NCBI RefSeq assembly: GCF_044324875.1
Contig: NZ_CP172185.1
Length of the DNA stretch: 64,000 nucleotides
Strand: one strand, 5' to 3'
Source: Escherichia coli
GTDB lineage: Bacteria; Pseudomonadota; Gammaproteobacteria; Enterobacterales; Enterobacteriaceae
Under the pieces are notes generated by a model. It saw only the letters and a program-made list of their open reading frames with translations, made no database searches and had not been told where the DNA came from. Position 1 is the first letter of the stretch. The number at the start of each line of letters is the position of its first letter. Made by a program: the position numbers and the translations under genes. Below, one piece after another: positions 41,822 to 44,686 of this stretch.

Positions 41822-43477
41822 TCAAAAACCGCTGTAGCCAAAGTTACGCTGACCTGATGCTTTAGTGTCGAGCTTCGTCAGATAATCCAGACGTGCCAAT
41901 AAGCGCTGATACTGCTCAGGGAAATCAGGATCGTTAATATCCAGGATGTAACGTCCATTAGTAGGGAAATGAACTAATCCCTGGTGATCTTCCAGTTCCA
42001 ACCCTAAGGCGCTGTACCAGGCTCCGGTAATTAACCCTCTCAGGGTGTCAGAGCGCTCATAGTCTCCCAGGTGGTAATAGGCGTCTTTGTTAAACAACAG
42101 GCAGACGTGATAATGACATTTAAAGGACTGTGTATATTCTTTCGCCCAGATAATACAAACCGACGTTGCGTAGGTGCGTTTGCCTTATTGTTTTTTACGG
42201 TGTTGATCTGCATTAATTTTCGCATTCAGCGAGTTACGGAAACGAGATATCTCTCCGGGGATCAGGTTAGGGAAACAGGTAATGGTATCCCCGTTGTCAA
42301 TCACAGGAGGGTAATGGAGATCCACCCGTATTGCTGTTATTCTGGAAGTATTTTTAATATTCGTATTGATAGTTCTCAGAGATATATCACACTCTAGATA
42401 TTTTAATTAAGTATCAGTTCGATATCGGCATATTGTACACTACCTCAGGTAGATGATGAGATCAGATACAGGGATCAACTGACGGTGAACGCAGTCCCCA
42501 CATTTTATCCAGGGCTTACTGCATATTCCCAACAGCCATTCGTTAGCCAGGTAGACGAATACCCTTTCCGCTGGTTTTGCTTTCCCATCGAAGGGCCCAT
42601 ACATCATCACGCCCGCGAAACAACCGACGAAATAATGCAACCTTCTCGTCGGTGGATAATACGAAAACGCACTGCACAGGGCTCTGCGGTTTACGTCACC
42701 ATTCAATCCCATGAGCTTCAAGTTATGCTTGCCCTTAGTGCAGCTAATTCATCACTGTCAGATTTATGAACTATATGCGTTATCTGTACCTGCCCCACGG
42801 GGTACCACCACAGAAGATGAAGTGTCATAGTCCCCTGCGCTGAGGACAAAGCTACGCATTAACGACAAATCCACGCGATAACTTACGATAGTTCGGACAT
42901 AAGCCCCCATAATTCAGTTATGTCGTGGTCGGCCGCGGTTACTTTTTTCGGGAAGCCTGCTACGGCCCAGAATAATACCGTGTTCTTTCTGATCCTGTTT
43001 AGCCAGATAGCTAAGGGCGTAACGTAAGTCGTCTACCGCAGACTTATCACTATAGTGAATCACGTGATCGATACGCACCGGGTATTTATCTTTAGCCCGG
43101 CACAGATGAAAATAAGCCTCCCCTTCCGTGATCCGCCTCCAGATATCTCCCAGTTGCCTGGATATCTGATAAGAGTTCTTGTGACGTTGTCCATCCAGAT
43201 AGCCGATAAAATGAATATGAAGCCCTTTGTCTGGTGTATATTCCATAACCCAGTAATATCCTGCCAACATCGTCTGGGTTTCGCTAAGTAAACGGTATAT
43301 TTCCATACACATACTGTGCTTACAGGAATGCCCGAAACTGGGCGTGTCTTTCCTGTAGGCAAAATCAATTCTGAAAGGTAACAGTTTAGAAAAACGTTGA
43401 AACAATCCCTCCATGTGTTCATTCACATCTTTCAGAATCGCGAAATTCATTTCGTAATTGGGATTGGCATTATACAT
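41822..43477 (-). pseudogene. YagK/YfjJ-like (inovirus Gp2-family) prophage gene, decayed into several frames
   Basis: Same-strand ORFs 42914..43477, 42440..42721, 42040..42225, 41822..42097 with dispersed similarity to the family; assignment from memory only. Confidence 0.4.
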
Positions 43478-44610
43478 TTTATAGTCCTTAATTTATAAAA
43501 CTCACAGGAAGAGGAAATTATGTAAATACTGAGAGAACATAAACGCCGTACCACGGCATTAATAAACGAAGTAAACCAGCAGCACAGACACCCTGATAAA
43601 ACTGTTTTGTATTACCGCATCGCTGTAACAAGGTAATACTTCAGAATTCAGTGAGGCTCTCTTAAACAGAGGACCAGTAAGAATTACAATGGTAAAAACA
43701 CACCTCATAGAATTGAGTTTAAGGAAGCACCATTCACTCAACCTGACATTCACAAAAGTCAGTACCAGGTGGCCTCAGGTAACATCGCTATTAATATTAT
43801 CCTGCCATTAAGTAAAAACAGAAACTCTGTGAGGAAGTCTCACCAATATTTGACCAGTAGCATAAAGAATAACGATATGAGAGATACGCCCACACCAGAG
43901 ATGATTACCCCATACAAAAAGATAATATTTATTAATACCACCGCACCTCAATAGACTAATAACACACTAATAGCGTTTTGGTACACACTTAACACTAACT
44001 ATGCACCAGACACATACTCAGGATTAACATTCCCAACATTTATGGTACTCTCAAAGAGTATAATTCACCACACAGGTAAACTCTCACACCAGTAGTATGG
44101 AGATAATGCTGTACACATACTTACAGAGTAAAGTGTACAGTTAGCATACAGTGGCGAGCAGACATTACAACATAAAGACATAAGATAGCATAATAAGAAC
44201 ATAACAAAACTCCCACTAATAATACTAATTAACCTTAATTCTTTTTTGAACAGGAAATCAACATTGCTCCAGACCTCTTCAGGTCATACACTTTTGTATT
44301 GGATGTTCAATGTGTACTTCTGCACAAACAAAAAAATAAAACCCGCAAAATAAAATATCAGCCCCAAAAATACAGCGTGAAACACCACGTTATGGATATG
44401 TTTTCATATCACCAGAAGCATATTTCACACATACAATACAGAAACAATTCATCATATAATCAGGGTTACTGTTCACTCCTCTCGGTTATCCGCGAGACGA
44501 TAAAACATGACACTAATCACAAAAACGAGAGATAGTATTTGCGAAATATAAACAACATAAAAATCAATGCGTTGCGATTTTTTATTTTTTCAGACATGCA
44601 TGCCCCCTCT

Positions 44611-44645
44611 GCTATTGTTGCTAGCCGGCTAGCAACAATAGCAGG
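44611..44645. repeat. Perfect 17-bp inverted repeat CTGCTATTGTTGCTAGC-C-GCTAGCAACAATAGCAG
   Basis: Read directly; about 40 bp downstream of the 607-aa ORF stop; no flanking U-run, so not a canonical terminator. Confidence 0.6.
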
Positions 44646-44686
44646 GATATACAAACATCGGATGCCAAAAACACGTTCCGATAATA

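What the first reader, a model, noticed from the sequence alone, without database searches (positions are those of the whole stretch)
43478..44686. 1.2-kb AC-rich non-coding stretch with a perfect 17-bp palindrome
Between the YagK/YfjJ-like remnant and the 607-aa ORF there is no convincing ORF. The + strand is strongly A+C-biased, and a perfect 17-bp inverted repeat (44611-44645) sits about 40 bp beyond the 607-aa ORF stop. This could be a structured RNA, a protein-binding site or simply decayed coding sequence.
Basis: seen in the sequence. Interest (0 to 1): 0.3.

Follow-up and report, generated by a model that had tools for sequence, protein, structure and literature searches.

The report
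Island spacer holding a conserved nuclease site
The 1.2-kb gene-free stretch is a real intergenic spacer of an E. coli genomic island; most of it drifts freely, but it holds a 36-bp hairpin and a roughly 30-base DNA motif that sits upstream of the same small DNA-nicking-type gene in many enterobacteria and is probably that protein's working site.

Summary
Window 43478-44686 has no credible ORF. Its + strand is 60.1% A+C, the most extreme value in the window. The palindrome is slightly larger than reported: 36 bp, 44609-44644, with perfect 18-nt arms.

The stretch is neither decayed coding sequence nor a known RNA family. It is the spacer upstream of an intact 187-aa YagK/YfjJ ("inovirus-type Gp2") gene. 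That gene carries HUH-nuclease motifs in an island of the SpLE1/CP4-57 type.

It has three parts:
- **Hairpin (3' flank of the 607-aa gene).** Three lineages keep it through five fully compensated pair changes.
- **Motif, 44209-44241 (- strand), core GGTTAATTAGTATTAT.** It occurs once, upstream and co-oriented, in every fetched locus with an intact region upstream of the HUH gene (E. coli, Citrobacter, Erwinia, Yersinia, Limnobaculum, a soil metagenome). It is the only conserved feature there.
- **A 741-nt spacer.** It is GT-rich on the gene's strand and less conserved than synonymous codon positions, so it is roughly neutral.

The best reading is that the motif is the HUH protein's cis site, a candidate nick site or origin that may overlap the gene's promoter. 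This is inferred, not shown. Interest is moderate.

The parts
42914..43477 (-). Intact 187-aa YagK/YfjJ ('inovirus-type Gp2') gene, read here as a small HUH-type nuclease with a C-terminal RGRPR AT-hook-like tail.
   Evidence: PGAP names it 'inovirus-type Gp2 protein'. There are weak Pfam hits to REP_ORF2-G2P and YagK_YfjJ_C. H87, H89 (LHIHF), Y157 and K160 (YLAK) and RGRP are conserved in at least 90% of the 29 aligned homologs. The AlphaFold2 model has pLDDT 90. The top Foldseek PDB hit is the parvovirus NS1 HUH nuclease, E = 6.5e-4.
43478..43500 (-). Ribosome-binding region of the HUH gene (TAAGGACTATAAA followed by ATG), nearly invariant among E. coli variants.
   Evidence: The last 25 columns of A3 have 97% mean pairwise identity.
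43478..44208 (-). Spacer or possible leader between the motif and the HUH gene (741 nt from the end of the 16-nt core at 44219). It is G+T-rich on the gene strand, full of indels, and roughly neutral.
   Evidence: G+T = 0.61 on the sense strand. The proximal 400 nt have 86.5% mean pairwise identity against 90.1% at codon position 3 of the adjacent gene. A 216-bp segment (43985-44200) is replaced by 38 bp in O157. Spacer length from the core to the ATG is 134-1132 nt in other genera.
43542..43560 (-). Terminator-like hairpin AATGCCGTGGTACGGCGTT followed by a U-rich tail, 65 nt before the HUH start codon.
   Evidence: Found by the consensus scan. Three of the four terminator-like sites lie on the - strand, against 1.0 +/- 1.1 expected for both strands together. 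The stem is kept in most variants, compensated in one and broken in four.
44209..44241 (-). Conserved cis motif GAATTAA-GGTTAATTAGTATTAT-TAGTGGGAGT (core 44219-44234). Proposed recognition or nick site of the HUH protein, possibly overlapping its promoter (-10-like TATTAT).
   Evidence: It is the only match in the 64-kb window (0.08 expected at <= 2 mismatches). It occurs once, upstream and on the gene's strand, in 26 of 30 loci. Its columns are essentially the only ones >= 90% conserved in a cross-genus alignment with 26% mean identity. It is exact in L034 and degenerate in L031-L033. The 61-bp block 44201-44261 is the matched stretch, at about 87-88% identity, in most of the listed rows of a search that hit 1568 of 5426 E. 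coli genomes.
44262..44686 (-). 3' flank of the 607-aa gene, specific to that gene's lineage (about 157 E. coli genomes).
   Evidence: Only 157 of 5426 genomes cover this part. It has no similarity to O157 or other YfjI-type loci.
44609..44644 (.). Perfect 36-bp palindrome (18-nt arms, each holding TGCTA-N4-TGCTA). It is a conserved hairpin or cruciform 42 nt past the stop of the 607-aa gene.
   Evidence: Homologous 18-nt perfect arms occur in O104:H4-type E. coli and in Citrobacter. Of 16 pairs, 5 changed on both sides, none on one side only, and none are broken or G-U. The pattern occurs only in loci with the layout 607-family gene, then gap, then HUH gene.
44687..46510 (-). 607-aa protein of unknown function; its 3' end abuts the stretch.
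   Evidence: No Pfam, PADLOC, NCBIfam or PHROG hit. It is 30-32% identical over its full length to Sakai ECs_1300 and to a Citrobacter 627-aa protein.
46599..46859 (+). AlpA-type HTH/excisionase-like regulator of the island.
   Evidence: PHROG excisionase/regulator hits. It is 78% identical to Sakai ECs_1302 and 43% to K-12 AlpA.
46875..48421 (+). DUF3987/YfjI-family helicase-primase-like gene, split here into two ORFs (154 aa and 361 aa).
   Evidence: phrog_2373 DNA helicase on both pieces. It is a single DUF3987 gene in strain PK8277.

Best explanation
The stretch is the intergenic spacer of a SpLE1/CP4-57-type integrative island, and only two short elements in it are functional.

1. The motif. 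About 740 nt upstream of the HUH-type (YagK/YfjJ, 'Gp2-type') gene lies a motif of roughly 30 nt, core GGTTAATTAGTATTAT. I propose it is the cognate DNA site of that protein: the place where the HUH nuclease binds, helped by its RGRPR AT-hook-like tail, and nicks. That would make it an origin for replication or mobilisation of the excised island. In intact islands this would work together with the flanking DUF3987 helicase-like gene and the IEE PrimPol-helicase gene. The site contains a -10-like TATTAT and probably also serves as, or overlaps, the gene's promoter or operator.
2. The hairpin. The 36-bp palindrome is a base-paired hairpin belonging to the 3' end of the 607-aa gene. It most likely acts as a transcript end or insulator in front of the motif.

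The remaining ~740 nt is a fast-drifting spacer, and its A+C bias is a lineage-specific composition.

Shown: the anatomy, the conservation pattern, the protein motifs, and the hairpin covariation. Inferred: binding, nicking, origin function and promoter function.
For: - Linkage. The motif occurs exactly once, upstream of and co-oriented with the HUH gene, in 26 of 30 fetched loci. The four without it are K-12, an IS-truncated contig, a contig holding only the gene's 3' end, and an unrelated region. It occurs once in the 64-kb window.
- Depth. It persists in Erwinia, Citrobacter, Yersinia, Limnobaculum and a soil metagenome, where the proteins are only 35-60% identical and the rest of the upstream region cannot be aligned.
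- Co-divergence. The most divergent proteins (34-36% identity) have degenerate versions of the motif, as expected for a protein and its own site.
- It does not track AlpA. The AlpA neighbours fall into two subfamilies only 24-29% identical to each other.
- Sequence resemblance. The core TA(G/A)TATTAT resembles the TAGTATTAC/TAATATTAC nick sites of circo-, nano- and geminivirus HUH Reps (my own knowledge of those families).
- Family habit. Every homologous locus has 370-1450 gene-free bp upstream of the gene.
- Hairpin. All 16 pairs are kept, with 5 double changes and none broken.
- Spacer neutrality.
Against: - No conserved stem-loop presents the motif, whereas many HUH Reps nick in a hairpin loop.
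- No iteron array was found.
- In the compact loci the motif lies 134-170 nt from the ATG, which is just as well explained by a plain promoter or operator.
- No experiment on any YagK/YfjJ protein turned up in the literature searches.
- The palindrome has no U-tract on either strand, so it is not a canonical intrinsic terminator. Its perfect symmetry without any G-U pair would also fit a DNA-level role.
Confidence: 0.45

Rival explanations
1. The motif is only a promoter or operator. A -10-like TATTAT is preceded by a conserved binding site (GGTTAATTA) for an activator or repressor. It drives a long untranslated leader that contains attenuating terminators, possibly read through with the help of the island's AlpA-type protein, as in Pseudomonas AlpA antitermination. 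On this reading there is no nicking or origin function.
For: - The orientation is always that of the gene, and in compact loci the core-to-ATG distance is 134-170 nt.
- There is a TATTAT hexamer and no recognisable -35, as at activator-dependent promoters.
- Three terminator-like hairpins lie on the sense strand of the spacer. Four were found in all, against 1.0 +/- 1.1 expected.
- An AlpA gene is present in every locus.
- Pseudomonas AlpA loads at a promoter element and bypasses downstream terminators (PMC7969949, PMC9371919).
Against: - The sigma-70 consensus scan finds no promoter at the motif.
- The published AlpA element GGGACG-N5-GGTA is absent.
- The same motif serves loci whose AlpA proteins are only 24-29% identical.
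- Conservation continues about 10 nt past the -10 into AGAAGT/GGGAGT, which is unusual for a promoter.
- The Hfq-CRAC sRNA candidate list for Sakai has no entry in the equivalent region.
Confidence: 0.3
2. The whole stretch, or its proximal 350 nt, encodes a structured non-coding RNA or cis-regulatory leader that acts through its fold.
For: - The proximal 350 nt are found in 1584 of 5426 E. coli genomes at 80-90% identity and are never annotated.
- Two 25-nt blocks reach 93% identity.
- One hairpin (A3 columns 15-36) shows a few compensatory changes.
- Fold z-score is -1.9.
Against: - Rfam gives no hit at E <= 1.
- The covariation term is only -1.13 kcal/mol, with 5 of 93 pairs compensated.
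- The antisense strand folds equally well (z = -1.85).
- The region is less conserved than synonymous sites of the neighbouring gene.
- It cannot be aligned outside Escherichia.
- No Hfq-bound sRNA candidate is listed there in Sakai.
Confidence: 0.1
3. The stretch is decayed coding sequence or the scar of an old insertion, with no function. On this reading the motif and the palindrome are leftovers.
For: - The spacer drifts at or above the synonymous rate and is full of indels.
- Its length varies roughly 8-fold between genera.
- A hydrophobic 42-aa ORF follows the motif in 8 of 15 variants.
Against: - There is no codon periodicity.
- No Pfam hit is better than E = 0.05.
- PGAP annotates many pseudogenes nearby but none here.
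- The 42-aa ORF is absent or interrupted in 7 of 15 variants, and differences between variants are mostly non-synonymous.
- Leftovers would not keep a motif across genera, nor a palindrome through five double changes.
Confidence: 0.1

Closest known systems
Rolling-circle Rep (HUH) proteins with an origin in the intergenic region upstream of rep. Examples: circovirus, nanovirus and geminivirus Rep with TAGTATTAC/TAATATTAC, and Ff phage gene II with the intergenic origin just upstream.
   Same: A small protein with HUH and YxxK motifs. A short, AT-rich, deeply conserved site lies in the non-coding region upstream of its gene, with core TA(G/A)TATTAT matching 8 of the 9 nonanucleotide positions. 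The Pfam/NCBI label is 'inovirus Gp2 / REP_ORF2-G2P'.
   Different: No conserved stem-loop presents the site. The last base differs. The element is a chromosomal integrative island with a tyrosine integrase, not a virus or plasmid. The protein is only 187 aa, has no helicase domain, and carries an AT-hook-like tail. Nicking has never been shown.
SpLE1 of E. coli O157:H7 Sakai (ECs_1299-ECs_1305, ending with iee, the IS-excision enhancer) and the CP4-57 int-alpA-yfjI-yfjJ module of K-12.
   Same: The same gene set occurs: integrase, 605-607-aa protein, AlpA-type HTH, YfjI/DUF3987, long gap, Gp2-type gene, IEE/AEP primase. The equivalent gap is the 820-bp ECs_1303-ECs_1304 spacer, with the same motif.
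   Different: In the window the block holding the 607-aa gene, HTH gene and DUF3987 gene is inverted relative to Sakai and K-12, so the 607-aa gene abuts the gap. That layout is shared with O104:H4-type E. coli and Citrobacter. Here iee is a pseudogene cut by an IS66-family insertion sequence. K-12 yfjI-yfjJ has only a 152-bp gap and no motif.
AlpA- or Q-type antitermination cassettes (Pseudomonas alpA-alpBCDE; lambda PR'-qut-tR').
   Same: There is a conserved element next to a -10 hexamer, a long untranslated stretch with terminator-like hairpins before the regulated genes, and an AlpA-family gene nearby.
   Different: The published AlpA-binding element sequence is absent. The motif is shared by loci with very different AlpA proteins. 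No transcription data are available.
Intrinsic terminators and 3' stabilising stem-loops of mRNAs.
   Same: A stable 16-18-bp stem lies 42 nt after a stop codon and is maintained by compensatory change.
   Different: There is no U-tract on either strand. The stem is unusually long and perfectly symmetric, with no G-U pair in three lineages. Each arm carries a repeated TGCTA. A homologous gene in Sakai uses a different, ordinary hairpin.

Membership tests
Any Rfam RNA family | Covariance-model match | tested here: not met
   cmscan of 42500-47500, both strands, at E <= 1 gave 0 hits. The O157 homolog gave only a chance miRNA hit at E = 0.46.
Decayed protein-coding gene | Residual similarity to a protein family, or codon-periodic substitution | tested here: not met
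   The best Pfam E-value on the 10 longest six-frame pieces is 0.054, below the family cut-off. Variable columns split 56/47/52 by frame. No pseudogene is annotated under the homologs listed.
HUH endonuclease / RCR Rep (for the 187-aa neighbour) | HUH motif on a central beta-strand | tested here: met
   The LHIHF segment has H87 and H89 conserved in >= 90% of 29 homologs and lies in predicted strand 85-95.
HUH endonuclease / RCR Rep (for the 187-aa neighbour) | Catalytic tyrosine in a YxxK-type helix | tested here: met
   In SYLAK, Y157, A159 and K160 are conserved in >= 90% of homologs. The segment lies at the end of predicted helix 145-159.
HUH endonuclease / RCR Rep (for the 187-aa neighbour) | HUH nuclease fold | tested here: inconclusive
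RCR origin / HUH nick site (for the motif) | Short conserved sequence linked to the rep gene across divergent relatives | tested here: met
RCR origin / HUH nick site (for the motif) | Nick site presented in the loop of a conserved hairpin or cruciform | tested here: not met
   DNA folds of eight lineages show no shared stem-loop around the motif. Energies range from -0.8 to -7.1 kcal/mol and mostly lie within the shuffled range.
RCR origin / HUH nick site (for the motif) | Site-specific nicking and covalent 5'-phosphotyrosine attachment | not testable with these tools
   Needs biochemistry.
Intrinsic (Rho-independent) terminator (for the palindrome) | Stable stem-loop immediately followed by a U-tract | tested here: not met
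   The stem is present. It is followed by AGGGGGCAUGCAUG on the - strand and GGAUAUACAAAC on the + strand. The terminator scan did not call it.
AlpA-dependent antitermination promoter | AlpA-binding element between -35 and -10, with terminator(s) downstream | tested here: inconclusive
   The published element GGGACG-N5-GGTA is absent. A different conserved element abuts a -10-like hexamer, and terminator-like hairpins follow. The motif is shared across two AlpA subfamilies only 24-29% identical.
P4-type ori/crr or plasmid iteron origin | Array of repeated binding sites (iterons) | tested here: not met
   No direct-repeat family has more than 3 short copies. There are no tandem repeats. No 9-mer occurs three or more times.

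The most novel reading that the evidence does not exclude
YagK/YfjJ ('Gp2-type') proteins are site-specific HUH nickases, and the GGTTAATTARTATTAT motif is their origin. On this reading a very common family of enterobacterial genomic islands can replicate or be mobilised by a rolling-circle-like route after excision. That family includes SpLE1 with iee, CP4-57-like elements and many defence islands; the upstream element is found in 1584 of 5426 complete E. coli genomes (29%). The HUH protein would act together with the neighbouring DUF3987 helicase and the IEE PrimPol. The perfect TGCTA-repeat palindrome could then be a single-strand initiation or recognition hairpin rather than a terminator.
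Probability: 0.3. Interest if true: 0.65.

Novelty: new variant of a known kind. Interest (0 to 1): 0.42.

Why it matters
These islands carry virulence genes, tellurite resistance, the IS-excision enhancer and anti-phage systems. How they replicate or move after excision is unknown, and the YagK/YfjJ gene is an uncharacterised 'core' gene in them. A conserved cis site paired with an HUH-type protein gives a concrete test: does the protein nick this 30-mer, and does the excised island replicate from it? For annotation, the motif is a simple marker for the functional boundary of the module. The work also shows that about 95% of the 'mysterious' 1.2 kb is drift-prone spacer rather than a hidden gene or RNA.

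Tried and rejected
- **Esr41 or another EHEC island sRNA.** Esr41 is 44 kb away in SpLE1. The Hfq-CRAC sRNA candidate list has no entry in the equivalent spacer, and the nearest (EcOnc64) lies at the 3' end of iee.
- **Strand bias from C-to-T deamination on a displaced single strand, or from selection against Rho loading.** The G+T excess on the sense strand occurs only in the Escherichia lineage. The short spacers of Erwinia, Yersinia and Citrobacter are skewed the other way.
- **A type I toxin-like small hydrophobic ORF right after the motif.** It is present in 8 of 15 variants, interrupted or deleted in the rest, and differences between variants are mostly non-synonymous. Hydrophobic codons are expected from T-rich DNA.
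- **A one-off inversion scar.** The layout of 607-family gene, then gap, then HUH gene recurs in O104:H4-type E. coli and in Citrobacter.
- **AlpA as the motif's binding protein**.
- **P4-like iterons**.
- **Searches that yielded little.** A genome-contig scan with the protein gave only 3 loci. A viral-contig scan with the motif gave only 2.
- **Literature searches on yfjI/yfjJ, ECs1303/1304, DUF3296/YagK and the genomic context of IEE** found nothing on the spacer or the motif.

Full report
**1. Checking the observation**

The region 43478-44686 lies between two genes on the - strand: a 187-aa ORF (42914-43477) and a 607-aa ORF (44687-46510). No start-to-stop ORF inside it exceeds 78 aa. The longest stop-free run is 99 codons, which is what shuffled sequence gives (82 +/- 21).

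The + strand is 38.5% A and 21.6% C, so A+C = 60.1%. The window mean for 1209-nt windows is 51.2% (sd 2.8). Only 0.06% of such windows are as skewed, and the maximum in the window is 60.3% (profile).

The palindrome is real but slightly larger than reported. It spans 44609-44644 with 18-nt arms, 100% complementarity and no spacer. It starts 42 nt past the TGA of the 607-aa ORF. There is no U-tract after it on either strand.

**2. Where the region comes from**

The full 1209 bp recur at >= 80% coverage in 155 of 5426 complete E. coli genomes. No feature is annotated under any of the hits listed.

The annotated context in strain PK8277 is an integrative island next to clpA. It contains a tyrosine integrase, a DUF3987/YfjI-type gene, an AlpA-type HTH gene, the 607-aa hypothetical gene, the gap, an 'inovirus-type Gp2' (YagK/YfjJ) gene, and a truncated 'TOTE AEP-primase' gene.

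In O157:H7 Sakai the same module is ECs_1299-ECs_1305 of SpLE1. There the primase-domain gene is iee, the IS-excision enhancer, and the equivalent gap is the 820-bp ECs_1303-ECs_1304 spacer.

Relative to Sakai and K-12 CP4-57, the block holding the 607-aa gene, the HTH gene and DUF3987 is inverted in the window. The same layout recurs in O104:H4-type E. coli and in a Citrobacter contig, so it is an established arrangement rather than a one-off scar.

**3. The stretch is a composite**

| Segment | Distribution |
|---|---|
| Proximal part next to the 187-aa gene (43478 to about 43984) | Matches of 43478-43830 in 1584 of 5426 genomes; most of the listed rows are at 80-90% identity; the alignment with O157 runs to 43984 |
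| 61-bp block 44201-44261 | The matched stretch, at about 87-88% identity, in most of the listed rows of a search that hit 1568 of 5426 genomes |
| 43985-44200 | Variable; 38 bp in O157 against 216 bp here |
| 44262-44686 | Only in the ~157 genomes that carry this 607-aa gene |

**4. Not coding, and not a known or convincingly structured RNA**

- Rfam finds nothing at E <= 1.
- Variable alignment columns show no codon periodicity (56/47/52).
- No small ORF is conserved across the 15 variants. A hydrophobic 42-aa ORF after the 61-bp block is present in 8 and disrupted in the others, and its differences are mostly non-synonymous.
- Six-frame pieces give no Pfam hit better than E = 0.05.
- Homologs in the plasmid collection have no annotated gene under the match.
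- The RNAalifold covariation term is only -1.13 kcal/mol.
- Both strands fold with z of about -1.9.
- The Hfq-CRAC sRNA candidate list for Sakai has no entry in the equivalent spacer. Esr41 lies 44 kb away.
- The upstream 400 nt are less conserved (86.5% mean pairwise identity) than third codon positions of the adjacent gene (90.1%).

Most of the spacer is therefore under no detectable constraint.

**5. The neighbouring gene is an intact HUH-type protein**

The 187-aa product is full length, not a remnant. An alignment of 29 homologs down to 21% identity keeps four features in at least 90% of the sequences:
- FRIDF;
- LHIHF, with H87 and H89;
- SYLAK, with Y157 and K160;
- a C-terminal RGRPR, which resembles an AT-hook.

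I read it as an HUH-type nuclease. The motifs are met; the fold is compatible but not decisive.

**6. The motif**

I fetched homologs of the HUH protein from Citrobacter, Erwinia, two Yersinia species, Limnobaculum, Rouxiella and several metagenome contigs. Every locus has 370-1450 gene-free bp upstream of the gene and an AlpA-family gene nearby.

A cross-genus alignment of these upstream regions has 26% mean column identity. Its only columns conserved at >= 90% are essentially those of one motif, GGTTAATTA(G/A)TATTAT, plus flanks. In the window the motif is GAATTAA-GGTTAATTAGTATTAT-TAGTGGGAGT, at 44209-44241 on the - strand.

- The core pattern occurs exactly once, upstream of and on the gene's strand, in 26 of 30 loci then held.
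- It occurs once in the 64-kb window, where 0.08 matches are expected even allowing 2 mismatches.
- It is exact in a soil-metagenome locus whose protein is 44% identical.
- It is recognisably degenerate in loci with 34-36% identical proteins.
- Its distance from the end of the 16-nt core to the start codon ranges from 134 to 1132 nt; in the window it is 741 nt.
- The AlpA proteins beside it fall into two subfamilies only 24-29% identical. The motif therefore tracks the HUH gene, not the AlpA type.
- K-12 yfjJ (21% identical protein, 152-bp gap) lacks it.
- No conserved hairpin surrounds it.
- The sigma-70 scan does not call a promoter there, although it contains a -10-like TATTAT.

**7. Interpretation of the motif**

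A short AT-rich site that stays linked to an HUH gene through deep divergence, and degenerates as the protein diverges, is what a Rep-origin pair looks like. From my own knowledge of those families, the core TA(G/A)TATTAT resembles the TAGTATTAC and TAATATTAC nick sites of circo-, nano- and geminivirus Reps. The protein's RGRPR tail would suit AT-rich DNA.

My preferred reading is that this is the protein's binding and nicking site. That makes it a candidate origin for the excised island, with DUF3987 and IEE as helicase and PrimPol partners. It probably doubles as the gene's promoter or operator.

The main rival is a pure promoter/operator, possibly with terminators in the leader. Four terminator-like sites were found, three of them on the sense strand, against 1.0 +/- 1.1 expected. 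Nothing computed here separates the two readings, so my confidence in the nick-site model is 0.45.

**8. The palindrome**

Homologous palindromes follow the 607-family gene in O104:H4-type E. coli and in Citrobacter, where the protein is 32% identical. All have 18-nt perfect arms.

On a three-lineage alignment all 16 core pairs are kept. Five pairs changed on both sides, none on one side only, and there are no G-U pairs. Each arm reads TGCTA-N4-TGCTA, with the N4 covarying between arms. The pattern occurs only in loci with the layout 607-family gene, then gap, then HUH gene. The Sakai homolog, which sits next to the integrase, ends with a different, ordinary hairpin.

Base pairing is therefore selected. 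The simplest role is a 3' end or insulator for the 607-aa transcript. It is not a canonical intrinsic terminator, and its strict symmetry also allows a DNA-level role such as a cruciform, a single-strand hairpin or a protein site. With only three distinct sequences this remains open.

**9. The A+C bias**

On the gene's strand the E. coli spacers are G+T-rich (0.59-0.61). The short spacers of Erwinia, Yersinia and Citrobacter are skewed the other way (0.36-0.44). It is not a family feature, and I found no evidence that it is functional.

**10. Novelty and score**

The searches I could run found no description of the spacer, the motif or any biochemical function of YagK/YfjJ proteins. One preprint lists 'inovirus Gp2-like' among the core genes of a wide family of genomic islands without assigning a role.

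The finding is best filed as a new variant of a known kind: an HUH protein with a linked cis site, in an integrative island. The original observation (composition and palindrome) is largely ordinary. The conserved motif is the part worth an experiment. Overall interest is 0.42.

Noticed in passing
window 46875-48421 and 48750-50396: The DUF3987/YfjI-type gene is split into two overlapping ORFs (154 aa and 361 aa), which looks like a frameshift. An IS21-family transposase ORF (548 aa) sits between it and the integrase (51289-52497). Strain PK8277 has a single DUF3987 gene and no IS there.
   Followed up: partly
window about 41870-42760 (PK8277 locus L001 10394-11282): The gene after the HUH gene is the homolog of iee (the IS-excision enhancer; PGAP calls it 'TOTE conflict system AEP primase domain protein'). 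Here it is a truncated, frameshifted pseudogene that abuts IS66-family genes, so an IS-excision enhancer has itself been disrupted beside insertion sequences.
   Followed up: partly
window 44687-46510: The 607-aa protein has no Pfam, NCBIfam, PADLOC or PHROG hit. It nevertheless has full-length homologs (30-32% identity) in Sakai SpLE1 (ECs_1300, annotated 'membrane protein') and in Citrobacter, always inside this island module. It is a conserved island gene of unknown function.
   Followed up: partly
window 44092-44117 and 44770-44795: A 26-nt inverted repeat, 85% complementary, brackets the motif, the palindrome and the last 83 nt of the 607-aa ORF. By a rough estimate it is unlikely to arise by chance. 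It is not found in the O104:H4-type, CFT073 or Citrobacter loci and remains unexplained.
   Followed up: partly
window 44121-44216 (-); A2 columns 793-947 in other strains: A short hydrophobic ORF starts just after the motif: 31 aa in the window and 42 aa (MGVMLSVMLSLFIVMSLLFML...) in 8 of 15 variants. It is probably a by-product of T-rich sequence, but a small membrane peptide or type I toxin is not fully excluded.
   Followed up: partly
whole window: ARAGORN finds no tRNA gene anywhere in the 64 kb. Yet the island lies next to clpA, where serW is expected (from my own knowledge of the K-12 gene order). I did not locate the attachment site.
   Followed up: no
L002/L003/L009-L013, just after the yfjI stop codon: In YfjI-type loci the gap begins with a different conserved hairpin: AGTCTCCTC, an 11-nt loop containing TGCTAC, then GAGGAGACT. 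Like the palindrome, it has no clear U-tract.
   Followed up: no
Sakai NC_002695.2 1381282-1381341 (L021): The published Hfq-CRAC sRNA candidate EcOnc64 maps to the 3' end of iee. This suggests a 3'-UTR-derived Hfq-bound RNA from this island module.
   Followed up: no
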